This document shows, one piece after another, positions 9,928 to 47,578 of a stretch of 51,234 nucleotides of DNA; positions within the stretch are counted from its first letter, which is position 1, and the number at the start of each line of letters is the position of its first letter. The stretch is from Candidatus Pacearchaeota archaeon (GTDB lineage: Archaea; Nanobdellota; Nanobdellia; Pacearchaeales; GW2011-AR1). The notes under the pieces were generated by a model, which ran no database searches, was not told where the DNA came from, and saw only the letters and a program-made list of their open reading frames with translations. The stretch spans positions 1 to 51,234 of the forward strand of contig JAGLYK010000015.1 in assembly GCA_023132255.1 (NCBI GenBank). Direction: 5' to 3'. Made by a program: the position numbers and the translations under genes.

Positions 9928-9933
9928 TCAAAG

Positions 9934-10012
9934 ATCCCCTCTCGTTCGACTACACTTCTTATTCCGATGACATAGACACCATCCGGGTGTGGGCGGGCGA
10001 ATGAAAATCTTC
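9934..10012 (-). repeat. intergenic copy of the mosaic repeat (M1-type with internal insert)
   Basis: Minus strand reads GAAGATTTTCATTCGCCCGCC...GTCGAACGAGAGGGGATCTTTGA-ATG. It fills the whole gap between two CDSs and ends at the start codon of 9394..9927. Confidence 0.7.
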
Positions 10013-10547
10013 ATTGGAAGATTTCCTTCACAAGTTTAATTCTCTCTCTAACTCCTAATGTCTTAGTTTTATGAGCATCTAAAACTCCTGTCTGCCCTGC
10101 ATAATTCGCAAGTTCCCAGACTGTAATTCCCAAAAGTTTCGCAGTGTTCTGCATTGAAACACCGTGCCCGTAAATCTTCGACGCCTTGTTAATGCTCGCC
10201 TTCCTAAAAACTTCCTGAATATATTTTTTCATCCCCGGAGAAGTCTTCCCAATCTCCGCACGCAATTGTTTTAAATTTTTCTTCAGCAAGTTCTCATCTT
10301 TCTTTGCACTTCTCATAACCTCATCAATCTTTCTAGTCACAACATTTAAATTCTCAACATATCCTCTCTCCAAAATCTTGCCCAAAGAATAAACAATCAC
10401 AGCAACAGCAATGTTGTCTGCATCTTGCGTCCTCGACGCAGTATTATTTGTCTGGTCACTCAACTGCTTAAGTTTCAAAGTATCTTTATTTTTCAAGGCA
10501 ACTTTTGTCTCTTCAAGAATCCTAAGAATATTTTCAACCTCTTCCAT
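10011..10547 (-). CDS. hypothetical protein (possible C-terminal HTH)
   Basis: 178-aa ORF. The segment SMQNTAKLLGITVWELANYAG looks HTH-like. Confidence 0.45.
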   Translation of the reverse strand: MEEVENILRILEETKVALKNKDTLKLKQLSDQTNNTASRTQDADNIAVAVIVYSLGKILERGYVENLNVVTRKIDEVMRSAKKDENLLKKNLKQLRAEIGKTSPGMKKYIQEVFRKASINKASKIYGHGVSMQNTAKLLGITVWELANYAGQTGVLDAHKTKTLGVRERIKLVKEIFQ

Positions 10548-13667: not shown

Positions 13668-14054
13668 ATGGAAATAATTAATGAAAAAGAAAACAAACTT
13701 TTCAACAGAAAAGAAATTCAAATAAATATTGAAGCAGAAATTACACCAAGTCATGAAGAAGCTAAAAAATTAATTTCTGAAAAATTCTCAACCCAACCAG
13801 AAAACATCAGAATAAAAAAAATCTTGGGAAAGTTCGGCTCAAAAGTTTTTGAGATTTCTGCAAATATTTATTTTTCTGAAGAAGAAAAAAATAAAACTGA
13901 AATTTTTTCAAAAAAAGAAAAAGAAAGAGAGAGAAAACCTGAACCTGCATCGCCTGGTGTACCCTCAAATACTGAATTACAGGGCAAAAAAACCGAAGCT
14001 CCTGTTGAAGAAAAACAAGAAGAAATTAAAGAAAAATCTAATGAGGTAAATTAA
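13668..14054 (+). CDS. rps24e: 30S ribosomal protein S24e with a K/E-rich C-terminal extension
   Basis: The N-terminal ~95 aa match the S24e pattern (NKLFNRKEIQ...ITPSHEE...). The tail contains the ASPGVPSNT repeat module. Confidence 0.85.
   Translation: MEIINEKENKLFNRKEIQINIEAEITPSHEEAKKLISEKFSTQPENIRIKKILGKFGSKVFEISANIYFSEEEKNKTEIFSKKEKERERKPEPASPGVPSNTELQGKKTEAPVEEKQEEIKEKSNEVN
13938..13985 (+). repeat. GGTGTACC-core repeat module in frame in the S24e tail
   Basis: CCTGAACCTGCATCGCCTGGTGTACCCTCAAATACTGAATTACAGGG. The ACTGAATT.C.GGG part resembles CTCACTGAATTCGGG in the thermosome insertion. Confidence 0.6.
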
Positions 14055-14319
14055 AATCGCAAAGAAAAAATCAAAACCAAAAAAAGGAAAAAAGCCGCAC
14101 AAGAACAAGGCAACTAGCAGGAAGTATACTAAATATAAAATAGATGGTGATAAAGTTACAAGAGAAAGATTTTGTCCAAGATGCGGGCCTGGAGTTTTTT
14201 TAATGAAATCACAGGGAAGAGTTTATTGCGGGAAATGTCATTATAGTGAGTTTGAGGGTAAAAAAGAAACAAAACCTGAATCTAAAGTTGAGGAAAAGAA
14301 AGAAGAGAAAAAAGAATGA
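14050..14319 (+). CDS. rps27ae: 30S ribosomal protein S27ae (start codon unresolved)
   Basis: Frame after TAA 14047-14049 encodes IKIAKKKSKPKKGKKPHKNK...YKIDGDKVTRERFCPRCGPGVFLMKSQGRVYCGKCHY. There is no ATG/GTG/TTG before the zinc knuckle. It is absent from the ORF track for that reason. Confidence 0.75.
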   Translation: MKIAKKKSKPKKGKKPHKNKATSRKYTKYKIDGDKVTRERFCPRCGPGVFLMKSQGRVYCGKCHYSEFEGKKETKPESKVEEKKEEKKE

Positions 14320-14330
14320 TTTTATTTCTA

Positions 14331-14808: not shown

Positions 14809-15027
14809 AAAAAGAGGTGATAGTATATGGAATACCCTGGACTATTTAAATCTTTCGTTTATGTTACCCTTAAAAAATGACAGGCTGAAATTAGTTTAAA
14901 GTAGTAATTAAAATTACTTCTGTAAAATACACCACTAAAATTAGGCACTACATAATATTTTTTTAGGCACTACAAATGCAAATTCTTCTCACAAAACAAT
15001 TATAAAACCAAATTAATTATTTAGCTA

Positions 15028-16029
15028 ATGGAAAAAGATGTGAGGGATATGCGATTTCCGTCGGATTGCAATAGAGAAATTGCTTCACGGAACAGGAAGC
15101 AAATCAAAGATTTTCAGTCGTCCGCCGAGGACATCGAACGAAAGGGAGATTCCAAAGAACCGCCAGGTTCTTTTGTTCAGGAGCAAATCCACGACATTTT
15201 ATTCAACAGGGAAATCGGTTGGCAAGAAATCATCTACGACCTAATCAACACAGAACAGCTTGACCCGTGGGACATAAACATAACAATTCTAACTAACAAA
15301 TACCTTGAAAAAATAGAGCAATTTGAAGAAGCAGATTTCTTCATCTCAAGCAAAGTCCTTTTGGCAGCTGCACTTCTCCTTAGAATCAAATCTGAAATCC
15401 TGTTAAACACTTACATCAAAAGCATAGACGAAATCCTCTTTGGAAAAAAAGAAAAAAAGAAACATGTCCTTGAAAGAATCGAACTTGACGAAGAAATCCC
15501 AGAACTAATTCCCCGAAGCCCAATTCCTCGTTACAAAAAAGTTACATTAAAAGAATTAATTAATTCATTAAACAAAGCAATCAAAACCGAAAACAGAAGA
15601 ATCAAAAAAGAAATAATCCACAAAAACGCATTAAGGGAAACAGGAATCTTTTTGCCAAAAAGAAAAATCAACATCCGCAACAAGATAAAACAAATCTATG
15701 AAAACCTGTTAAGTCATCTTGGCGAGGATAAAGCCAGGAAAAAAATTTCTTTTACAGAATTTGCCGGAACAAGCAGGGAAGAAAAAATAGCTTGTTTTTC
15801 TCCGCTTCTGCATCTGGAAAATCAAAAAAAAATCTGGCTTGAACAGGAAGAGCATTTTGAAGAAATTCATCTCTGGCTCAAAAAAACTTATCTAAAACAT
15901 AATCCAGACCCATTTGCAGATTTAAAATACGAAATAGAAAAAGAGATAAAAACCGAGGACATCAAACGAGACAAAGAACAAAAACAAAGATTAGACAAAA
16001 TAAATAAAGATTTTGTGGAACTTATTTAA
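15028..16029 (+). CDS. scpA: segregation and condensation protein A (kleisin) with a repeat-derived N-terminus
   Basis: The core (WQEIIYDLINTEQLDPWDINITILTNKYLEKI...) is ScpA-like. There is no in-frame ATG/GTG/TTG downstream of the repeat, so the repeat must be translated. Confidence 0.75.
   Translation: MEKDVRDMRFPSDCNREIASRNRKQIKDFQSSAEDIERKGDSKEPPGSFVQEQIHDILFNREIGWQEIIYDLINTEQLDPWDINITILTNKYLEKIEQFEEADFFISSKVLLAAALLLRIKSEILLNTYIKSIDEILFGKKEKKKHVLERIELDEEIPELIPRSPIPRYKKVTLKELINSLNKAIKTENRRIKKEIIHKNALRETGIFLPKRKINIRNKIKQIYENLLSHLGEDKARKKISFTEFAGTSREEKIACFSPLLHLENQKKIWLEQEEHFEEIHLWLKKTYLKHNPDPFADLKYEIEKEIKTEDIKRDKEQKQRLDKINKDFVELI
15051..15175 (+). repeat. composite mosaic repeat (hairpin module M0 + module M1 + tail) forming ScpA codons 9-50
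   Basis: GCGATTTCCGTCGGATTGCAATAGAGAAATTGC (M0), then AAGCAAATCAAAGATTTTCAGTCGTCCGCCGAGGACATCGAACGAAAG (M1), then GGGAGATTCCAAAGAACCGCCAGGTTCTTTTG (tail). Confidence 0.85.
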
Positions 16030-20226: not shown

Positions 20227-20298
20227 GGTGGAAGCCGGGAGTTGAACCCAGACTTTGCGGACCACAACCACACGCGCTACCATTACGCTACATCCACC
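20227..20298 (-). tRNA. tRNA-His (GTG) with genome-encoded G-1
   Basis: G-GTGGATG acceptor (one T-T mismatch), anticodon arm TGTGG-TTGTGGT-CCGCA, T arm CTGGG-TTCAACT-CCCGG. Discriminator C can pair with G-1. Confidence 0.85.
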
Positions 20299-20451
20299 AT
20301 AATTTAACAAAGAAAAATCTAATTTATAAGGTTTTTCAGAAATAAAGTCGCAACTAGAAAAAACCTTCCTTATGATGCCGATAATTCCTAGTATTTATCA
20401 TAAAACTACCACAAAAAAAGCATTTTTAAACTTAACTAATTATATATTTTT

Positions 20452-30406: not shown

Positions 30407-30515
30407 ATTTCCCTTGGATTGCGAGCGATTTCCGAGGCTCAACAAAGTTGAGTCATCCCAGTGGGATGGTAGGGACAAAATGAAAATAATAAATAACCTG
30501 TGTGAAGTCGGGAGG
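30407..30515 (+). repeat. two-hairpin repeat element, copy 1 (candidate 5'-leader RNA)
   Basis: 55 nt (30421-30475) are identical to 39864-39918. Hairpins are CTCAAC-aaa-GTTGAG and CATCCC-agt-GGGATG. A conserved 3' box AATAACCTGTGTGAAGTCGGGAG ends 9 nt before the ATG at 30525. Confidence 0.8.
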
Positions 30516-30524
30516 AACTTTTGA

Positions 30525-32330
30525 ATGGCAAAAGCAGGTGACTACACAATCAGCAATATTTATCAGGGAAGTTATTCCAGTTTCACACCCTACAATACTG
30601 AAGCAACAGCAGGAAGCATGGGACTCACAACAGACCCCCGAAATGCAAATATACTGCAGGAAGTTTCTTCAAAATTATCAACAGGTGTAAAACACATTGA
30701 AATTGAAGCCGTTTCCCTAGATATGATTGACCAAATTCCAAAACAACAAATGGAAGAAGTCAGAAGATTAAAGGAACTAACAGGCATAGAAGTTTCAATG
30801 CATGGACCAGTTATTGATACAACAGGAATCACACAACAAGGATTCAGTGAACTGAGTAGAGAAGGCTCTGAAAGAAAAATAATCCAAACTATTAACCGAA
30901 GCCATGAGCTTGACCCAAAAGGGAATATAATTGTCAACTTTCATTCTGCAGAAGGAATCCCTGGAACAGAATGGAAAAAAATTCCAGATGCAGAAAAAAA
31001 AGGTAAAGCGAAAAAATTAATTGTAGTGAATAAAGAATCTGGAAAATTAGCCCCATTAGAATCTGAAAAAAAACATTATCCAATAATGCATGATGATAAA
31101 GGAAAATTAATCCCTCTTGAAAAAGGAGAGGTTCTTTCTCCTGAAGTAGAATTGAAATTACTTAACAATTCAGAATGGATAAATAATTTAACTAACATAG
31201 AATCTTTTAAAAAACAAGCAGATGAAATAATGTCTGAGGCAGTAACTCCTTTAGCACCTTTATTAACAGAATATAAAAAAGGAGACAAAATAGAATTTCA
31301 TACTCCAAAACAAGAAGCAGCATTTCAACAATTGCAAAGAGCGGAAATATTTTTAAGAAACGTTGAATCTAGTTTTAACGCAGTATATGATAAAGCTTAC
31401 AAATATTCAAATAAGAAAGAAAAAGAAAAATTAAAAGAAATCTCTAAAGAGTGGATTAAAGAAATGAAAGGAATTGAAGAACAAGGAAATACCTTAAATT
31501 ATCCTATGCTCAAATCACAATTATTAGATAAAGCTCTTGGGCAGATAAGACAGGTTGCACCACCTGAATTATATATTCCTATAGAAAAATTCGCAACAGA
31601 ACAAGCATCAAAAACTTTTGGCAATGCTACTTTTGAATCCTGGAAAAAATTCAAAGATAGTTCTCCAATTGTCAGTATTGAAAATCCTCCTGCAGGTTTT
31701 GCACTAAGCACAGGGGAAGATTTAAAAAATTTAGTTAAAGCTTCTAGAAGACAATTTGTAAAAAACGCAGTAGATTCTGGAAATCTTTCTAAATCCGAGG
31801 CTGAAAAACAAGCAGAAAAATTAATCGGAGCTACCTGGGATGTCGGGCATATTAACATGATAAGAAAGCAGGGGTTTGAAGATAAAGATATTATAAAAGA
31901 AACAGAAAAAATTGCACCTTATCTCAAGCATGTTCATCTTTCAGATAACTTTGGTTTTGAGCACACAGAACTTCCAATGGGAATGGGAAATGTGCCTACT
32001 AAAGAAATTATGGAAAAACTTGGCAAGAAAGGATTTGAAGCAAAAAAAATAATTGAAGCAGCACACTGGTGGCAGCATTTTAAGAGCCCTCCTGTCCAGG
32101 AAACTTTCGAAGCCATGGGTGCTCCAATTTACAGCGACGGCGTAGGTCCTTACTGGAACCAGTCATTAGGATTTCAGCAGGATTATTATTCAGGATACGG
32201 CATGATGCTTCCTTCAGTCAATTACAACATGCAGGGCTCTGGATTTTCAATGGCATCATTACCCACAGAACTCGGGGGGCAAATGCCAGGAGCACAAGGC
32301 GGAAGAATGTCTGGAAGAGGCATGGAATAA
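30525..32330 (+). CDS. xylose isomerase/endonuclease IV-like TIM-barrel protein with a large internal insertion and G/M/Q-rich tail
   Basis: Metal-site-like motifs in order: VSMHGP, VNFHSAEG, VSIENPP, WDVGHIN, HVHLSDNFGFEHTELPMGMGNV. About 230 aa of K/E-rich sequence lie between the second and third motifs. Confidence 0.55.
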   Translation: MAKAGDYTISNIYQGSYSSFTPYNTEATAGSMGLTTDPRNANILQEVSSKLSTGVKHIEIEAVSLDMIDQIPKQQMEEVRRLKELTGIEVSMHGPVIDTTGITQQGFSELSREGSERKIIQTINRSHELDPKGNIIVNFHSAEGIPGTEWKKIPDAEKKGKAKKLIVVNKESGKLAPLESEKKHYPIMHDDKGKLIPLEKGEVLSPEVELKLLNNSEWINNLTNIESFKKQADEIMSEAVTPLAPLLTEYKKGDKIEFHTPKQEAAFQQLQRAEIFLRNVESSFNAVYDKAYKYSNKKEKEKLKEISKEWIKEMKGIEEQGNTLNYPMLKSQLLDKALGQIRQVAPPELYIPIEKFATEQASKTFGNATFESWKKFKDSSPIVSIENPPAGFALSTGEDLKNLVKASRRQFVKNAVDSGNLSKSEAEKQAEKLIGATWDVGHINMIRKQGFEDKDIIKETEKIAPYLKHVHLSDNFGFEHTELPMGMGNVPTKEIMEKLGKKGFEAKKIIEAAHWWQHFKSPPVQETFEAMGAPIYSDGVGPYWNQSLGFQQDYYSGYGMMLPSVNYNMQGSGFSMASLPTELGGQMPGAQGGRMSGRGME

Positions 32331-32368: not shown

Positions 32369-33358
32369 ATGGTGACAAAAAAGAAAACTTCCAAGAAAGT
32401 AAAAAAAATTTCTAAGAAGAAACTTCCAGTTTTAGTCAGCAAGAAGAATAAGTCAAAATCTATAAAACAAAAAAAAGTTGTGAAAAAAAAATCCACCCGA
32501 TTTCCCTCGGAGGCTCTTAAAGAAGTTGCCCACCGGAACAAAAAGAAAAAATCCAAAAAAATTAATCCAAAAGATATCGCTACTTTGAATTTAAGATCAG
32601 AACATGATATTGCAATGGATTTTGCAACAAAAGCATATAAAAAATTTAACAGAGTAATAAAATCAATCATCCTCTTTGGTTCATCAATAAAACAGACTTC
32701 AACTGCAGATTCTGACATTGACATAATAATTTTAATTGACGATGTTTCAATACACTGGGACCAAAAATTAATTGCATGGTACAGGCAAGAACTTGACAAA
32801 TTATTAAAGGCAAATCCTTATGAAAAAAGCCTGCATATTAATACAGTCAAGTTAAGCACTTGGTGGGAAGATTTAATGAGAGGCGACCCAATTATCCTAA
32901 ATATTTTAAGACAAGGGAAATCATTAATTGATCTTGCAGGATTTTTTGAACCATTAAAATATTTGTTAATCAAAGGAAAAATAAAATCCACTCCTGAAGC
33001 AATTTACAGTTGTCTTCAAAGAGCACCAGTACACATACAAAGAAGCAAGTCTGCTGAATTGAATTCTATTGAAGGTTTATACTGGGCAATGGTTGACTCT
33101 GCACATGCAGCACTCATTGCTGCAAACATTTCCCCACCTTCGCCAGAACATATTGCCCCAGAACTAAAAGAAACTTTTGTCCCTGGAAAACTAAAAATGA
33201 AATATGTTGTTTGGTACAGGGATTTACTAATTCTCCATAAGGACATCACTCATGGAAGAATCCACGACCTTAAAGGCGCAGATATAGATGAATGGCAGGA
33301 TAGAACAGAAGAATTCTTGGGAGTCATGGCGAGGTTGGTTAATAAACTTGTTAGTTAA
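32369..33358 (+). CDS. nucleotidyltransferase (Pol-beta superfamily) domain protein with a helical C-domain
   Basis: ILFGSSIKQTSTADSDIDIIILIDD (GS...DxD). Paralog of 35966..37516. The K-rich first ~85 aa may not be real, and an alternative start is MDFATKAYKK. Confidence 0.6.
   Translation: MVTKKKTSKKVKKISKKKLPVLVSKKNKSKSIKQKKVVKKKSTRFPSEALKEVAHRNKKKKSKKINPKDIATLNLRSEHDIAMDFATKAYKKFNRVIKSIILFGSSIKQTSTADSDIDIIILIDDVSIHWDQKLIAWYRQELDKLLKANPYEKSLHINTVKLSTWWEDLMRGDPIILNILRQGKSLIDLAGFFEPLKYLLIKGKIKSTPEAIYSCLQRAPVHIQRSKSAELNSIEGLYWAMVDSAHAALIAANISPPSPEHIAPELKETFVPGKLKMKYVVWYRDLLILHKDITHGRIHDLKGADIDEWQDRTEEFLGVMARLVNKLVS
32497..32545 (+). repeat. hairpin module (M0) of the mosaic repeat inside the NTase ORF
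   Basis: CCGATTTCCCTCGGAGGCTCTTAAAGAAGTTGCCCACCGGAACAAAAAG compares with the minus strand of 34838-34886, GCGATTTCCATCGGAGGCTCTTAAAGAAATCGCCCACCTGAACAAAAAG. It encodes RFPSEALKEVAHRNKK in the same frame as RFPSDCNREIASRNRK in ScpA. Confidence 0.75.
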
Positions 33359-34256: not shown

Positions 34257-34799
34257 TTATTTCTTAAACTTTTCATACAAAGCTTTAGTCTTGCCCGGGA
34301 GCTTGGACTTGATTTGCTTGAATATTTTTCTTGTAAATGCAATTGCTTTTTCATTTGCCACAGCAACGAAGAAAATCTTTGAACCTGGTTTTAAAATCGC
34401 TGCCTTTCCTGTCGCCTTGCCATAAGCCAACTGCATGCCTGTCTGCATTCTGTCTGCCCCTGCTCCTGTAAGCATTTTGTTCTCTCGCTGAATATGATGC
34501 GGAAACGGAATTACCTTAAACAAATACTGCCCTGAAAGTTCCTTGTCCAGTTTCTTATTAATAAACTGCCTGCACGCCTCAAACGCATTGTGCCGAATCT
34601 GAACCTTCTCTGTTGAAATCAAAGTCAGGGTATGTGGAAGTTTGCCATTGTTGTAAAGCCCTTCCTTGCCCATTGCAAACTTCACAATCTTCTGCGGCGG
34701 CACAGTCTTAATATACGACTTCTGCCTTCTCTTGCTAACCCGGGTAAACGGAAGAACTTTCTTCTTAGAATATGCTGTTGCTTTTCTTAAAGTTGCCAT
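34257..34799 (-). CDS. rpl10e: 50S ribosomal protein L10e (uL16)
   Basis: MATLRKATAYSKKKVLPFTRVSKRRQKSYI... is a typical L10e N-terminus and length. The ATG at 34799 is preferred over the track's TTG at 34802. Confidence 0.9.
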   Translation of the reverse strand: MATLRKATAYSKKKVLPFTRVSKRRQKSYIKTVPPQKIVKFAMGKEGLYNNGKLPHTLTLISTEKVQIRHNAFEACRQFINKKLDKELSGQYLFKVIPFPHHIQRENKMLTGAGADRMQTGMQLAYGKATGKAAILKPGSKIFFVAVANEKAIAFTRKIFKQIKSKLPGKTKALYEKFKK

Positions 34800-34883
34800 C
34801 AAAAGACACCTCGCGGTTTCTTTTGTAAACTTCCCTTTTTGTTCAGGTGGGCGATTTCTTTAAGAGCCTCCGATGGAAATCGC
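34800..34883 (-). repeat. 84-nt cassette (hairpin M0 + TATA-like box + AGGTG) abutting the L10e start codon
   Basis: About 72/84 identical (hand alignment) to 39466-39549. Minus strand reads GCGATTTC-N17-GAAATCGC...GGGAAGTTTACAAAAGAAACCGCGAGGTGTCTTTTG-ATG. Confidence 0.85.
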
Positions 34884-34922
34884 GAACAAACCGTGTTTAA
34901 TTTAATTAATTGAATTTTCATG

Positions 34923-39464: not shown

Positions 39465-39465
39465 T

Positions 39466-39549
39466 CAAAAGACACCTTGCGGTTTCTTTTGTAAACTTCC
39501 CTCTCTGTTCAGATTAGCGATTTCTTTATTGCAATCCGATGGAAATCGC
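39466..39549 (-). repeat. 84-nt cassette (hairpin M0 + TATA-like box) abutting the tRNA-Val 5' end
   Basis: Second copy of the 34800-34883 cassette. It ends 1 nt before tRNA-Val position +1. The hairpin loop variant (GGATTGCAAT) matches the ScpA copy. Confidence 0.85.
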
Positions 39550-39615
39550 AGGGATATTGCAACTATTATTTTAGTCGCATAAATTTTATATAGCATGTGT
39601 GCTTTTAAGTTTTAC

Positions 39616-39661
39616 GCGTGGTTAATTTATTGATAGAATACATCGTTGCCAACGATGTGAG
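39616..39661 (+). pseudogene. tRNA-Gly(GCC)-like 5' portion (acceptor strand, D arm, complete anticodon arm) without a recognisable T arm
   Basis: GCGTGGT-TA-ATTT-ATTGATA-GAAT-A-CATCG-TTGCCAA-CGATG-TGAG compares with the intact tRNA-Gly GCGTGAG-TA-GTTT-AATGGTA-GAAC-G-TAACG-TTGCCAA-CGTTG. It is followed by repeat-related sequence (ACCTCTAACGAGG). Confidence 0.5.
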
Positions 39662-39749
39662 CCGGGTTTCCCACAGGGATGACCTCTAACGAGGCCTCAA
39701 TTCCCTCGCGACTATATTTTTTTAAACTATCTTTTCTAATTTCTTTTAA

Positions 39750-39854: not shown

Positions 39855-39955
39855 ATTTTCCCGGCGAGCGATTTCCGAGGCTCAACAAAGTTGAGTCATC
39901 CCAGTGGGATGGTAGGGAGTAAATTTAATATTAATAACCCGTGCGAAGTCGCGAG
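39855..39955 (+). repeat. two-hairpin repeat element, copy 2
   Basis: The 55-nt core 39864-39918 is identical to 30421-30475. 3' box AATAACCCGTGCGAAGTCGCGAG. Lies between tRNA-Gly and the EamA transporter gene. Confidence 0.8.
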
Positions 39956-40014: not shown

Positions 40015-40872
40015 ATGGTTTTTTATTTTCCAATTTTAGGTGCAGTTGCATTAGCAACAGGGCTTGTAGTGCAAAAAACACTTTTACGAAAAAGAAAAAT
40101 CAACATCAAGCTTTTCCAGTCAGCAGAATTCCTCGCAATTACTTTAGCACTTCTTCCTTTTGTTTATTTTTTCTGGAAAATTGATGCCCAGGCATTTGAA
40201 CTCGGAAATACACTCATCTTCTCGTTGGTAATTATTCTTTCAATCGCCGCGAACCTTTTTACTTATTATTCAATGAAATGGGAAAAATTAAATAATCTGG
40301 AACCTGCAAAACTCCTTGAACCATTATTTATTATTTTGCTCGCAATTATTTTTAGCTACTTGGTAAGCGAAACCCTTTTTGAAAGAAATATAAAAATAAT
40401 CATCCCTGCATTAATCGCCAGTGCTGCAATAATTTTCTCGCACATAAAAAAACATCATTTGCATTTCAACAAATATTTCATCGCAGCAATCCTCGGAAGC
40501 TTTTTCTTCGCACTTGAATTAATAATCACAAGACTAATCCTTGACTTCTACTCCCCGACAACATTTTATTTCTTAAGATGCACAACAATTTTCCTAATCA
40601 GTTTCATTGCATTTAAACCAGACTTCAGCAAACTAAACAAAAAAGTAAAATTACAAATTTTCGCATTAGGATTTCTCTGGGCTTTTTACAGGGTAATAAT
40701 TTATTACGGCTTCCTAAAACTCGGCGTAATCTTCACAACACTAATGATAATGCTTAGCCCGATATTTATTTATTTGTTTGCATGGAAATTCCTAAAAGAA
40801 AAATTAAGCTGGAGAAACATCGTCGCTGCTTTAGTTATAGTTGGGTGTGTTTTGTATGCTATTTTGGGTTGA
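40015..40872 (+). CDS. EamA/DMT-family transporter
   Basis: 285 aa, about 10 TM segments in two repeated halves. Confidence 0.75.
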   Translation: MVFYFPILGAVALATGLVVQKTLLRKRKINIKLFQSAEFLAITLALLPFVYFFWKIDAQAFELGNTLIFSLVIILSIAANLFTYYSMKWEKLNNLEPAKLLEPLFIILLAIIFSYLVSETLFERNIKIIIPALIASAAIIFSHIKKHHLHFNKYFIAAILGSFFFALELIITRLILDFYSPTTFYFLRCTTIFLISFIAFKPDFSKLNKKVKLQIFALGFLWAFYRVIIYYGFLKLGVIFTTLMIMLSPIFIYLFAWKFLKEKLSWRNIVAALVIVGCVLYAILG

Positions 40873-41120: not shown

Positions 41121-42824
41121 TCAATACCCTGGCATCCCAGGCATGCCCCCTGTCATGGAATTCATGCTCCCTGTTTTATCTGTTGAAGCAATAACATCAT
41201 CAATTCTTAAAATCATAATCGCAACTTCTGACGCAGAATTAATTGCCTGACTCTTAATTTTGTACGGCTCAATAATTCTTGCTTCCAGAACATTTTCAAC
41301 TTTGTTAGTAAACAAATTAATTCCGGCATTTTTTTCCCCGGCATCATGCCTTGATTTTAATTCTGTTAAAATATCTATTGGATCAATTCCTGCATTTTCT
41401 GCCAAAGTTGTTGGTATAAATTCCAACGCAGATGCAAACTCTTCAACAGCGAGTTGTTCTCTTCCGCTTAATGACTGGCCAAAATGCCTTAGTCTGTGCG
41501 CAAGTTCAATTTCAATAGCACCTCCCCCTGGAACAACCAACCCGGTTTTCATGGAAGAGGCAACATCACCCATGCCATCTTTTAAAGCTCTTTCAGTTTC
41601 ATCAAGAACATGCTCTGTTCCGCCATGAATTAAAATTGTTAATGCTTTTGGGTTTTTGCATCCTTTAATATAAGTTAAAGTATCTTCGCCATGCTTCACT
41701 TCTTCAACAATCTGGGCATAGCCTAATTCCGGCGAAGCAAGCTCATTTAAATTACTCACGATTTTTCCCCCGGTTGCCTTGGATATTTTTTCCATATCGC
41801 TTTTTGCAACTCTTCTGCATACATAAATATTTTTTTTAGATAATAAATACTGCGCAAAATCATCAACCCCTTTCTGGCAAAAAACAACATTTGCTCCGGA
41901 CATCTCAATTTTCCCAACCATGTCTTTAATTGATTCTTCTTCCTGCTGAATAAAACTCTGCAACTGCTCAGGAGAAGAAATTGAAATTTTTGTATCTATT
42001 TCAGGATTTTTTAATTCCAAAGCAAAATCAACCAAAGCAATTTTCGCATCATAAACAACCTTCGGCATATCAGCTGAAACTTTCTCCTTGTCCAGAACAA
42101 TTCCGGAAATCAATTCTGTATCTTTAATGCTGTTCCCTTTTGATTTTTCTATTTTAATATCATTTAAATCAATTTTCCCATTATGCTGAATTTGCTTTCG
42201 TTCAATGTCCTCGGCGGACGATTGAAAATCTCCGATTTGCTTTTTCCCGAATTCAGTGAGGGAAGTTTGAAAATCTCCGATTTGCTTTACAGCCTTGACA
42301 ATAATCTCTGCGAACTTTTCTTTCAGACCCTCGGCACCTTTGCCAGTCATAGCAGTCATGGCAATTTGTTTTAAAATGTCTTCATCCTCGGGGCTAATCT
42401 TTAAAGAAATCTCCTTTAAAATTTCCTGGGTTTTTTCTGCTGCAATTCTATAGCCTTTTGTAATAATAGTTGGATGAATTTTTTTATCTAAAAGTTTTTC
42501 AGCATTTTCCAAAAGTTTTCCAGCAATCATAACTGCTGTGGTAGTTCCGTCCCCAACCTCACTTTCCTGCGTCTTTGCAATTTCTACCATCATCTTTGCG
42601 GCAGGGTGTTCAATCTGCATTTCATCTAAAATCGTCACGCCGTCGTTGGTAACAACAATATCATTTGTCGGAGAAACCAACATCTTGTCCATGCCTTTAG
42701 GACCAAGAGTAGTTTTAACAATCTCTGAAACCATCTTCGCCGCTAAAATATTATTTCTTTGGGCATCCTTGCCCATTATCCTCTGAATATCTTCTGGCAT
42801 TAGAACAACTGGTTTTTCTGTCAT
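41121..42824 (-). CDS. ths: thermosome subunit (group II chaperonin) carrying a 30-aa repeat-derived insertion
   Basis: [34 protein letters not shown] motifs and a GGMPGMPGY tail. The extra segment is [30 protein letters not shown]. Confidence 0.95.
42189..42287 (-). repeat. tandem 2 x 45-nt repeat units in frame inside the thermosome gene, bounded by AAGCAAAT(C/T)
   Basis: AAGCAAAT(C/T) occurs at 42279-42287, 42234-42242 and 42189-42197, a 45-nt period. Unit B is 44/48 identical to ScpA 15097-15144. Confidence 0.9.
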
Positions 42825-46565: not shown

Positions 46566-47156
46566 TTAAGAATAAATTTCATCCCATAAAGTTTCAAAAT
46601 TCTTTCGAAGATCAACATTAACTGAATCTGTCAAATGAGTAATATATTTATCAAAATCTATCTTAAGTGCAGTTAAAAAAAGGTGTGGATTAATAAGAAT
46701 AGATTCTCCATCTACTCCAAGCAAGATAGCATTTGCTAAATCTGAATTAATTAATATTTTCTTTCTTACCATCCCATCATGAAAAAGGCCGTGCCTCACA
46801 TCATTAACAAGTATCTCAAGTGCTTTTTCATGTTGAGAGGGAATAGTAAATATTCTCCTTAGAGAATCTTTAATCACTTCTTTAGACTCACTAAAATTAG
46901 TCTTCTTGCCTCTTCTAAATTGTTCTATTCCTTCTAATTGGCTCATGCAAATCATTAGAATAACAAAACCACTATGGAATTCATCTTTGAGCAGTTCGGC
47001 TATATCCAAAAACCACCCATTAACTCTATCTTGATAAACTGCAATCTTTGTATTTAAATCATTATTGTACTTATTCACAACAACTTCTTCCTTCATTATA
47101 TTAGTACTTAATTCGGGGTCTAAAAAAAAGTTCGGGCTTATCGCTGTTCTAACCAT
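46566..47156 (-). CDS. hypothetical protein
   Basis: 196-aa ORF with no recognised family. Confidence 0.5.
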   Translation of the reverse strand: MVRTAISPNFFLDPELSTNIMKEEVVVNKYNNDLNTKIAVYQDRVNGWFLDIAELLKDEFHSGFVILMICMSQLEGIEQFRRGKKTNFSESKEVIKDSLRRIFTIPSQHEKALEILVNDVRHGLFHDGMVRKKILINSDLANAILLGVDGESILINPHLFLTALKIDFDKYITHLTDSVNVDLRKNFETLWDEIYS

Positions 47157-47295: not shown

Positions 47296-47376
47296 TCTCC
47301 TCGTGAAATCGCTCTCGTTTGACGACCTTGGCGGACGAATGAAAATCTTTGATTTGCTTGGACTTGAATTCTGGGG
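47296..47376 (-). repeat. intergenic copy of the mosaic repeat (M1 followed by the start of M0)
   Basis: Minus strand reads CCCCAGAATTCAAGTCC-AAGCAAATCAAAGATTTTCATTCGTCCGCCAAGGTCGTCAAACGAG-AGCGATTTCACGAGG. Confidence 0.8.
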
Positions 47377-47445: not shown

Positions 47446-47578
47446 TCCCTCCGCCCAGATTTGAACTGGGGATCTCCCGGGTTCTGTTATGGCTTTTGGG
47501 GTTTCATAGTAATCATTATTGAATCTCCACCTTAGTTATTAACTACAGCCAGGCGCTCTACCACTGAGCTACGAAGGG
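47446..47578 (-). tRNA. tRNA-Tyr (GTA) with a 61-nt intron at the canonical 37/38 position
   Basis: C1-G72 acceptor CCCTTCG/CGGAGGG, D arm GCTC-AGTGGTA-GAGC, anticodon stem CCTGG/CCGGG, loop CTGTAG|intron|C, T arm CCCAG-TTCAAAT-CTGGG. Intron is about 47482-47542. Anticodon-intron helix CTGT/ACAG. Confidence 0.8.

What the first reader, a model, noticed from the sequence alone, without database searches (positions are those of the whole stretch)
15028..15180. The ScpA N-terminus is built entirely from repeat modules
Residues 9-50 ([41 protein letters not shown]) are encoded by M0 + M1 + tail. The recognisable ScpA core begins right after (VQEQIHDILFNREIGWQEIIYDLINTEQLDPWDI). There is no in-frame ATG, GTG or TTG between the repeat and the first ~150 core residues. 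Either the only available start codons (ATG 15028 or 15049) sit at the repeat edge and the repeat is translated, or initiation is non-canonical. The same M0 frame (RFPS...RN[KR]K) is used in the NTase ORF at 32497-32545.
Basis: partly seen in the sequence, partly recalled or inferred. Interest (0 to 1): 0.7.

Follow-up and report, generated by a model that had tools for sequence, protein, structure and literature searches.

The report
Hairpin repeat inserted in-frame in ScpA
A 126-base piece of a short, hairpin-forming repeat family has landed in frame just after the seventh codon of the chromosome-segregation gene scpA of an uncultured DPANN archaeon and must be translated, an archaeal counterpart of the "selfish DNA inside protein genes" known from Rickettsia.

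Summary
Window 15049-15174 (42 codons, 46% GC against 33% for the rest of the gene) is a composite of interspersed repeat modules: M0 (hairpin HP1), M1, and a tail (hairpin HP2). Other copies lie at 32496, 34800, 39465, 42195, 42243 and 47312.

The start-codon puzzle is solved by comparison. ATG 15028 and the promoter-like block upstream align with those of orthologues. These begin MEKEV..VKQEQIHD and lack the insert, including the 92%-identical sister gene. So residues 1-7 are native and residues 8-49 are an in-frame insertion. It must be translated, because the conserved N-terminal domain has no other start.

A second ScpA lineage carries a different copy (84 nt, no M1) at the same position. 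The same modules also sit in frame in:
- the thermosome (window);
- the Lys-rich tail of the nucleotidyltransferase (window);
- ribosomal protein S6e (a relative).

Their usual place is directly in front of start codons or tRNA 5' ends. A filled-versus-empty tRNA-His site between close relatives shows they insert. The two hairpins covary.

Best reading: a Rickettsia-palindromic-element-like insertion. The means of spread is unknown. No description was found in the literature.

The parts
14995..15027 (+). Conserved promoter-like block with a TATA-like TTATAAAA (15000-15007), 28 to 21 nt before ATG 15028. It implies a leaderless or nearly leaderless scpA mRNA.
   Evidence: The block is conserved in the window, L205 and L206/L208. 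The geometry is read from the sequence. Promoter function is inferred.
15028..16029 (+). scpA (kleisin of the SMC complex), 333 aa including the insertion.
   Evidence: Pfam PF02616. Homologues. PDB ScpA N-domains align from query residue 62-66. The same 333-aa protein is called in two public assemblies.
15028..15048 (+). Native first seven codons (MEKDVRD), homologous to the orthologues' MEKEV.. N-terminus. ATG 15028 is the ancestral start.
15049..15174 (+). Composite repeat insertion: 126 nt, 42 codons, GC 46%, open in the gene's frame ([42 protein letters not shown]).
   Evidence: Absent from the 92%-identical orthologue L205. Composition and frames. Covariance-model hit 15050-15176.
15050..15096 (+). 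Module M0 with hairpin HP1 (arms GCGATTTC 15051-15058 and GAAATTGC 15076-15083, one G.U pair).
15097..15144 (+). Module M1 (AAGCAAATCAAAGATTTTCAGTCGTCCGCCGAGGACATCGAACGAAAG), read as [16 protein letters not shown].
   Evidence: nhmmer 60 bits, E 9.5e-18..
15145..15175 (+). Tail module with hairpin HP2 (AAAGAACC 15154-15161 / GGTTCTTT 15166-15173). The terminal TGA of canonical copies is missing here (TTTTGTT), and the loop is 1 nt shorter, so the frame stays open.
32496..32560 (+). M0 copy (3'-truncated element) in frame in the Lys-rich N-terminal tail of the nucleotidyltransferase ORF 32369-33358.
   Evidence: Relatives have the Lys-rich tail, but none of the 12 relatives whose sequences were read has RFPS.
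34799..34921 (-). Canonical long copy of the M0+tail element directly in front of the ribosomal protein L10e gene. It forms a 40-codon upstream ORF whose TGA overlaps the L10e ATG (34799-34797).
   Evidence: 87 bits.
39465..39550 (-). Canonical M0+tail copy ending at the first base of tRNA-Val (39464).
   Evidence: 83 bits.
42195..42287 (-). Two tandem 45-nt M1 units in frame inside the thermosome gene (residues 184-211 have no counterpart in solved thermosomes).
47312..47359 (-). Intergenic M1 copy, followed by a GCGATTTC..GGGGTCGG hairpin module, in the leader of ORF 46566-47156.
9928..10010 (-). M1 variant with an enlarged loop. It fills the space between the TGA of ORF 10011-10547 and the ATG (9927) of the histidine-phosphatase gene.

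Best explanation
Window 15049-15174 is a composite copy (M0/HP1 + M1 + tail/HP2) of a family of short, modular, hairpin-bearing interspersed repeats. The family is found in this group of AT-rich DPANN archaea (records named Nanoarchaeota, Pacearchaeota or Woesearchaeota).

The usual position of the modules is the first few dozen bases of a transcription unit, ending 0-4 nt before a start codon or a tRNA 5' end. In scpA the mRNA appears to start at or next to ATG 15028. The element therefore landed 21 nt inside the ORF.

This copy survived for three reasons: its length is a multiple of three, the gene's frame runs through it without a stop, and the cassette's usual terminal TGA is out of frame or mutated. 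Translation starts at the ancestral ATG 15028 and reads through. That adds 42 highly charged residues to the variable N-terminal tail, ahead of the first helix of the kleisin.

Shown:
- it is an insertion relative to orthologues;
- the ancestral start is retained;
- the frame is open and the core is under purifying selection;
- hairpins are conserved across the family;
- presence/absence polymorphism exists at orthologous sites;
- in-frame copies occur in other housekeeping genes.

Inferred:
- the transcription start;
- that the extension is tolerated rather than useful;
- the way the element spreads. No transposase, terminal inverted repeats or consistent target duplication were found. Microhomology (A/G)AGCAAAT at the 3' junctions hints at template switching or recombination.
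For: Insertion and start:
- Among the top 120 orthologues, typical N-termini read MEKEVNNVKQEQIHDILF. Only P0005 carries an RFPS insert.
- The DNA alignment shows ATG 15028 and the upstream block conserved. L205 is empty, the window is filled with 126 nt, and L206/L208 are filled with 84 nt at the same site.
- In the NJ tree the window is sister to insert-free P0001, and P0005 is sister to insert-free P0002. This implies two gains.
- Starts and stops, GC content, and synonymous versus non-synonymous counts.
- PDB ScpA domains begin at query residue 62-66.

Not an artefact:
- The same gene occurs in two other assemblies that differ from the window by 4-5 bases over 13-20 kb.
- P0005 occurs on 13 contigs.

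Family:
- Census of the window.
- The covariance model finds 25 copies in the loci held.
- 93.8% of cells are paired. Five pairs have compensatory changes, above the shuffles and the slid controls. Folds.
- Copies lie directly 5' of L10e, L11 (x2), S4e, RpoP, Spt4, tRNA-Val and tRNA-His.
- The tRNA-His site is filled in L205 and empty in the window and L206.
- A composite M0+M1-like+tail exists in the sister genome, 94% identical over 67 nt.

Other in-frame hosts:
- thermosome;
- S6e of CSMAG_2067;
- nucleotidyltransferase tail;
- a 78-aa ORF in metagenomes.
Against: - No expression data exist. The transcription start and the translated N-terminus are inferred.
- No autonomous partner or transposase was found among about 35 window ORFs scanned.
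- There are no terminal inverted repeats and no consistent target-site duplication, so 'mobile element' rests on presence/absence patterns only.
- Two independent insertions at the same codon, and consistent placement at 5' ends, could mean function rather than selfish spread.
- The structure model of the protein is too poor to say the insert is disordered (mean pLDDT 54).
- The covariation counts come from an alignment fitted to the model.
Confidence: 0.75

Rival explanations
1. The modules are functional 5'-proximal RNA elements: a structured leader signal shared by genes of the translation and transcription apparatus and by tRNAs. scpA acquired the signal inside its ORF because a leaderless mRNA cannot take a 5' UTR. 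On this reading the insert is retained for its RNA structure (stability, translation control or protein binding). The peptide is a by-product.
For: - All canonical copies are co-oriented with, and directly 5' of, the gene they precede.
- TATA-like boxes lie 25-51 nt upstream of HP1 (read).
- Hairpins covary.
- 3'-arm variants GAAATCG, GAAGTCG, GAGGTCG and GGGGTCG keep pairing only as G.U on the sense strand.
- HP2 is a perfect 8-bp stem in the scpA copy, and the region folds somewhat better than shuffles (z -2.07).
- Two scpA lineages carry HP1 at the same distance from the ATG.
Against: - M1 units sit in mid-gene in the thermosome (codon ~180) and after the S6e domain, where a leader function is impossible.
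- Close relatives do without the element at the same genes (scpA and tRNA-His).
- The M1 arms in scpA carry two mismatches.
- RNAalifold finds no consensus structure for the M1 leader type.
- There is no Rfam match.
Confidence: 0.15
2. The repeats are a protein-level module. The peptides (RFPS..., [16 protein letters not shown]) would be a short functional motif spread between proteins and kept by selection on the amino-acid sequence.
For: M1 is open in all three frames. Yet it is read in the same frame (..SSAED[IV]ER..) in ScpA, the thermosome, S6e and a 78-aa ORF.
Against: - Copies also lie in front of tRNAs and between genes.
- The P0005 insert reads the 3' half of the element in another frame (RFPSSDVKKSLTRKEREAYKKNRKVSF).
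- Indels in the tail shift the frame between copies while the nucleotides stay conserved.
- M1-like N-terminal inserts of other ScpA orthologues use a different frame.
- The 42-aa peptide has no relatives in 5.8 billion proteins.
Confidence: 0.05
3. The repeat is an untranslated leader, and ScpA starts downstream by non-canonical initiation.
For: - Canonical copies of the family are leaders.
- The neighbouring S27ae gene seems to lack a canonical start, so unusual initiation may exist in this genome.
Against: - The ancestral ATG and promoter block are conserved upstream of the repeat.
- The insert length is a multiple of three and the frame is open.
- The first canonical start after the repeat (TTG 15361) would remove the most conserved 60 residues.
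Confidence: 0.03
4. Assembly artefact or decaying pseudogene.
For: Repeats can cause chimeric joins in metagenome assemblies.
Against: - Three near-identical but not identical assemblies carry it.
- The reading frame is intact over 333 codons with purifying selection.
- An independent lineage with the same kind of insert is seen on 13 contigs from several sources.
Confidence: 0.02

Closest known systems
Rickettsia palindromic elements (RPE)
   Same: Both are short (<200 nt) palindromic or hairpin-forming repeats present in many copies. Both are inserted in frame into unrelated conserved genes, adding a peptide that the protein tolerates. Orthologues without the insert exist (RPE features as summarised in PMC10969869).
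   Different: - The host is archaeal.
- No sequence relationship was tested or is expected.
- The elements here are modular (M0, M1, tail and large-loop variants in several orders).
- Their main home is the 5' leader directly before start codons and tRNAs, all co-oriented with the gene.
- Different copies are read in different frames.
BOX elements of Streptococcus pneumoniae, and BIME/REP mosaics
   Same: Both show modular build-up from a few short units in variable order and number, with stem-loop potential, located between genes (own knowledge; BOX with ORFs is mentioned in PMC10969869).
   Different: Those are bacterial and mostly lie 3' of genes or between them, without a fixed distance to the start codon. 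In-frame copies in essential genes are not their hallmark.
MITEs of archaea (Sulfolobus, Haloquadratum and others)
   Same: Both are non-coding, short, multi-copy elements with presence/absence polymorphism.
   Different: No terminal inverted repeats, no consistent target-site duplication and no related transposase were found here.
IS200/IS605-derived palindrome-associated elements and REP/RAYT systems
   Same: Both have two different sub-terminal hairpins, no inverted terminal repeats, no target duplication and strict orientation (own knowledge).
   Different: No TnpA, TnpB or RAYT gene is present in the window. No conserved tetra- or pentanucleotide target was seen at the left ends. The link is only a lead.
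Upstream-ORF / termination-reinitiation coupling at overlapping stop-start junctions (ATGA, TGATG) in archaeal operons (PMC10666635)
   Same: Canonical copies begin with ATG(A) and end with a TGA that overlaps or abuts the downstream ATG. In 11 of 31 M1 leader copies a long upstream gene ends in the element's first ATGA.
   Different: Here the junction is filled by a conserved 50-125 nt cassette repeated at many genes. The scpA copy is inside the ORF.

Membership tests
ScpA / kleisin (PF02616) | Match to the family profile above the curated threshold | tested here: met
   54.3 bits against a cut-off of 24.6, residues 72-281. Homologues are named segregation and condensation protein A.
ScpA / kleisin (PF02616) | N-terminal helical domain that binds the SMC neck | tested here: met
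   Residues 62-189 align to the solved ScpA N-domains 6ivh, 3w6j and 3zgx. The insert lies N-terminal to it.
RPE-like in-frame palindromic repeat | Short repeat present in several copies in the genome | tested here: met
   Four M0/tail copies and six to seven M1 copies in 51 kb.
RPE-like in-frame palindromic repeat | Palindromic or hairpin potential conserved between copies | tested here: met
   HP1 and HP2 are predicted in most copies. Compensatory changes occur in 5 of 16 pairs, with 93.8% of cells paired (the alignment was fitted to the model).
RPE-like in-frame palindromic repeat | In-frame insertion in conserved genes whose orthologues lack it | tested here: met
   ScpA. Thermosome. Nucleotidyltransferase tail. 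S6e in a relative (the insert follows the S6e domain, and orthologues without it were not compared).
RPE-like in-frame palindromic repeat | Sequence homology to the Rickettsia RPE families | not tested
   No RPE sequences were at hand. Given the different domain of life and the AT-rich host, this is treated as an analogue, not a member.
MITE | Terminal inverted repeats | tested here: not met
   The two ends differ (GCGATTTC.. versus ..GGTTCTTTTG). The palindromes are internal.
MITE | Target-site duplication of fixed length | tested here: inconclusive
   - TATG flanks the tRNA-His copy.
- ATGA flanks many M1 leader copies.
- A 29-nt duplication flanks the L066 copy.
- Nothing is recognisable at scpA.
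MITE | Related autonomous element with a transposase | tested here: not met
   No transposase domain in about 35 window ORFs. The rest of the genome was not examined.
Known RNA families (Rfam 15) | Covariance-model match | tested here: not met
   Only five tRNAs in the window, even at E up to 1.

The most novel reading that the evidence does not exclude
The GCGAUUUC...GAAAUCGC hairpin modules are not junk. They would be a lineage-specific 5'-proximal RNA signal that ties tRNAs, ribosomal-protein genes, RNA-polymerase and Spt4 genes and, through in-ORF copies gained twice, the chromosome-segregation kleisin into one post-transcriptional regulon. The cassette would spread by copying itself to transcription start regions.
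Probability: 0.15. Interest if true: 0.8.

Novelty: new variant of a known kind. Interest (0 to 1): 0.6.

Why it matters
- It settles the annotation question. The 333-aa ScpA with start 15028 is right, and the odd N-terminus is an insertion, not a mis-called start.
- It shows that the Rickettsia-style phenomenon of repeats living inside essential protein genes also occurs in genome-reduced DPANN archaea. Here it touches the kleisin, the thermosome, a ribosomal protein and a nucleotidyltransferase.
- It points to an undescribed family of modular hairpin cassettes that sit exactly at gene and tRNA starts.
- That family matters for gene calling in these MAGs (spurious small ORFs, wrong starts).
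- It matters for understanding leaderless versus leadered expression in DPANN archaea.
- It offers a natural experiment on how much extra sequence conserved proteins tolerate.

Tried and rejected
- The tail as a promoter. TTTACAAA lies 31-24 nt before the L10e ATG and tRNA-Val. I rejected this because most copies have ATTCCAAA there, HP2 shows compensatory changes, and better TATA boxes lie upstream.
- A conserved small protein encoded by the M0+tail cassette (MK.Q.IKL..RFPSEALKEIA..). I rejected it because indels shift the frame between copies, copies precede tRNAs, and only two small ORFs in 5.8 billion proteins resemble it.
- The P0002 N-terminus as a remnant of a deleted insert. I rejected it because KPSV[KN]QEQ is a common native motif.
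- A genome scan with the 14-base M0 head. It was non-specific and wasted.
- A search with the 42-aa insert peptide found nothing.
- RNAalifold on 28 M1 leader copies gave no consensus structure and no covariation.
- The AlphaFold model of the window ScpA has mean pLDDT 54 and pTM 0.20. It cannot be used to call the insert ordered or disordered.
- The bacterial promoter/terminator scan was not used, because the organism is archaeal.

Full report
**What is there.**
The window is 32% GC and archaeal in gene content. It carries Spt4, S24e, S27ae, L10e, a thermosome and an intron-containing tRNA.

ORF 15028-16029 (+) is ScpA, the kleisin of the SMC complex (PF02616, E 2.5e-14). The same 333-aa product is called in two public assemblies: ENA ERZ23498622 scaffold_22 and NCBI GCA_030630265.1. 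They differ from the window at only 4-5 positions over 13-20 kb.

**The repeat is real.** The matches within the window are:
- 15097-15144 matches 42195-42242 on the other strand (92% of 48 nt; blastn E 4.7e-13).
- 15097-15147 matches 47309-47359 (86% of 51 nt).
- 15050-15095 matches 39505-39550 (85% of 46 nt).
- 32498-32545 matches 34835-34882 (92% of 48 nt).
- 34799-34883 and 39465-39549 are 86% identical over 85 nt.

Profile searches give four M0/tail copies and six to seven M1 copies in the 51 kb. A covariance model of the 85-nt M0+tail element recovers 15050-15176 as a single full-length hit with M1 as an internal insertion (52 bits, E 2.5e-10). The insert is 46% GC against 33.5% for the rest of the gene.

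**Where ScpA starts.**
Of 3797 homologues, the best 120 nearly all begin with about 7-20 variable residues followed by VKQEQIHD[IL]LFNREIGWQEIIYDLINTEQLDPWDIN. Examples are MEKEVSNVKQEQIHDILF and MEKDVSIKQQQIHDILF.

The closest orthologue is P0001, 92% identical in the core. It comes from MAG CSMAG_2067 (GCA_030640395.1) and lies in the same gene order (Rpo7, Spt4, S24e, S27ae, ScpA, diphthamide synthase, HisRS).

The DNA alignment shows three things:
- The upstream block CACAAAACAATTATAAAACCAAATTAATTAT and the ATG are conserved.
- The relative reads ATG GGA GAA AAA GAA GTG AAT AAT GTA AAG CAG GAG CAA ATC.
- The window reads ATG GAA AAA GAT GTG AGG GAT, then [126 nt], then GTT CAG GAG CAA ATC.

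So codons 1-7 are native. Codons 8-49 (15049-15174) are an in-frame insertion, and ATG 15028 is the ancestral start.

An in-frame TAG sits at 15022-15024. In-frame starts are ATG 15028, GTG 15040 and ATG 15049, then nothing until TTG 15361 (codon 112), which lies inside the conserved domain.

Between the window and the relative the core has 231 identical, 25 synonymous and 24 non-synonymous codons. The gene is therefore under purifying selection, and its conserved N-terminal domain can only be made by reading through the repeat.

Solved ScpA N-domains align from residue 62-66. The insert lengthens the tail that precedes the first helix, a tail that already varies from about 7 to 30 residues among orthologues.

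The TATA-like TTATAAAA lies 28-21 nt before the ATG. This suggests a leaderless mRNA, which is an inference.

**A second, independent insertion.**
P0005 (317 aa, on 13 contigs from JGI, ENA and Logan) has an 84-nt M0+tail element without M1 at the same position. It reads MKKEIEDA-RFPSSDVKKSLTRKEREAYKKNRKVSF-EQQQIQDILF.

In a neighbour-joining tree of the core, the window pairs with insert-free P0001 and P0005 pairs with insert-free P0002. They sit inside a clade whose other members (P0003, P0004, P0006, P0007) lack the insert. Two gains are more parsimonious than one gain and four or more exact losses. The two inserts also differ in make-up and in the frame used for their 3' halves.

**What the repeat family is.**
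The 85-nt element has three parts:
- hairpin HP1 (GCGATTTC, 17 nt, GAAATCGC);
- a spacer (..CCTGAACAGGAAGGGAA..);
- hairpin HP2 (AAAGAACC, GCTTA, GGTTCTTT), followed by TTG(A).

Across 24 distinct copies found with the model, 93.8% of pair cells are standard pairs. Five of 16 pairs show changes on both sides. Examples are GCGACTTC/GAAGTCGC and AAAAAACC/GGTTTTTT. This is above all 500 shuffles for cells and score, and above the slid controls. The caveat is that the alignment was fitted to the model.

Variants with large loops share the GCGATTTC arm. Their 3' arms GAAGTCG, GAGGTCG and GGGGTCG pair only through G.U on the sense strand.

Canonical copies are all co-oriented with the next gene and end 0-4 nt before its start. 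Cases seen are L10e and tRNA-Val in the window, and L11 (two genomes), S4e, RpoP, Spt4 and tRNA-His in relatives.

Before protein genes, a 5' extension beginning with ATG makes a ~35-40-codon upstream ORF whose TGA overlaps the gene's ATG. In the window this is 34921-34799. However, indels shift the frame between copies and copies precede tRNAs. Conservation is therefore at nucleotide level.

M1 belongs to a wider family. It reads ATGAAAGCAAATCAAAGATTTTCATTCATTCG, then 8-25 nt usually containing GGAGG, then ..AAATGA. It lies directly before start codons in dozens of Pacearchaeota, Woesearchaeota and Nanoarchaeota MAGs. In 11 of 31 cases a long upstream gene ends in the first ATGA. Window examples in that position are 10010-9928 and 3251-3215. 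No Rfam family matches any of this.

**The elements insert.**
At the tRNA-His locus the sister genome has an ~80-nt element between the TATA-like box and the tRNA. The window and a third genome have the empty site, with otherwise alignable flanks. At scpA the polarity is reversed: the window is filled and the sister is empty.

The leader of rpoP is a simple element in one genome and a composite (M0 + M1-like + tail-like segment + large-loop module) in another. That composite is 94% identical over 67 nt to the scpA insert, so the composite existed before it entered scpA.

I found no terminal inverted repeats, no consistent target duplication and no transposase in the window.

The 3' junctions of the coding insertions are followed by (A/G)AGCAAA(T). 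This resembles the M1 5' end AAGCAAATC. It occurs in the thermosome (AAGCAAATT), ScpA (GAGCAAATC) and S6e (GAGCAAAAT). It hints at microhomology-guided copying, but this is speculation.

**Other proteins carrying the modules in frame.**
- The window's thermosome has two 45-nt M1 units (..[40 protein letters not shown]..). phmmer against solved thermosomes breaks exactly there: residues 184-211 have no counterpart.
- A 76%-identical thermosome in another MAG has one unit at the same site.
- In CSMAG_2067, M1 follows the S6e domain in frame (..KQIKDFHSSAEDVERE..).
- In metagenomes the core lies in a 78-aa ORF with a weak histone-fold match.
- The window's nucleotidyltransferase has M0 in its Lys-rich N-terminal tail. 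Relatives share the tail (MVKKK...), but none of the 12 relatives whose sequences were read has RFPSEALKEVAHRN.

M1 is open in all frames, yet these hosts share one frame. Other ScpA orthologues, however, carry M1-like N-terminal inserts in another frame (weak similarity).

**Verdict.**

The best-supported account is an in-frame insertion of a modular hairpin repeat whose normal niche is the very 5' end of transcription units. ScpA tolerates it because it extends an already variable tail.

This works like the Rickettsia palindromic elements (PMC10969869), but it is not a member of that family and fails the defining tests for a MITE.

The main rival is that the hairpins are a functional 5'-proximal RNA signal and that scpA keeps the insert for that reason. 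It cannot be excluded without transcript data.

Three full-text searches found no description of such elements in DPANN archaea.

Noticed in passing
window 14047-14322 (+): The ribosomal protein S27ae gene (PF01599, E 8.7e-15) has no ATG/GTG/TTG before its first CxxC. Where the sister genome has ATG GCA AAG, the window has ATC GCA AAG (14056-14058), just after the S24e stop (..GTA AAT TAA AAT CGC..). Gene callers give only a 38-aa fragment from ATG 14203. Possible explanations are near-cognate (AUU/AUC) reinitiation, a +1 frameshift fusion with S24e, or an error. The sister genome has a ~215-nt spacer with hairpin modules here, which the window lacks.
   Followed up: partly
window 30421-30481 and 39864-39924 (+): A 61-nt repeat (97% identical) lies in the 5' regions of ORF 30525-32330 and of the EamA transporter gene at 40015. 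It starts with the same GCGATTTC arm as HP1. It holds two small inner hairpins (CTCAAC/GTTGAG and CATCCCA/TGGGATG) and closes with GAAGTCG further downstream. It is a large-loop member of the same family. There is no Rfam match.
   Followed up: partly
loci L002, L010, L017, L043, L050, L051, L065, L067, L084 and others: A nearly invariant 32-nt sequence, ATGAAAGCAAATCAAAGATTTTCATTCATTCG, is followed by a variable stretch with GGAGG and then ..AATGA. It fills stop-to-start junctions in ribosomal-protein operons (before uL14, L23, S4e) and precedes apgM in many Pacearchaeota and Woesearchaeota MAGs. Its first TGA is often the stop of the upstream gene, and the downstream AUG can pair with UUUCAUU.
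   Followed up: partly
window 34799-34921 (-): A 40-codon upstream ORF (MKIQLIKLNTVCSRFPSEALKEIAHLNKKGSLQKKPRGVF) is formed by the repeat cassette between a 94-aa ORF and L10e. Its TGA overlaps the L10e ATG. Two similar small ORFs exist in the protein collection (P0121, P0122), one with an enlarged HP1 loop.
   Followed up: partly
L205 10215-10299 versus window 20298-20330: There is a filled/empty polymorphism of the 85-nt element directly upstream of tRNA-His. It is present in the sister genome and absent in the window and in L206. TATG lies on both sides of the filled copy.
   Followed up: yes
L066 1460-1610: One element copy lies in inverted orientation inside the 5' end of a gene. It is flanked by a 29-nt direct duplication of that gene's start (ATGATAACTTACAATGATATTTACGAAGC), with a new GGAGG and ATG downstream.
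   Followed up: no
L224 2716-2820 and L225 10001-10105: Other ScpA orthologues (P0027, P0011, and by peptide similarity P0102 and P0018) have ~20-residue N-terminal inserts (..KQDKNQEILAYSSEKS..). Their DNA weakly resembles M1 (AATCAAAGATTTTA..; E 2e-4 to one M1 leader) but is read in another frame. The ScpA tail upstream of GAGCAAATC may be a recurrent landing site.
   Followed up: partly
window 39551-39749: A relatively GC-rich, unannotated stretch lies between tRNA-Val and tRNA-Gly, with terminal complementarity (GTCGCATAA ... CGCGACTAT). There is no Rfam match and no ORF.
   Followed up: no
window 47446-47578 (-): A tRNA gene of 133 nt carries an intron. Rfam finds it (51 bits) but ARAGORN does not.
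   Followed up: no
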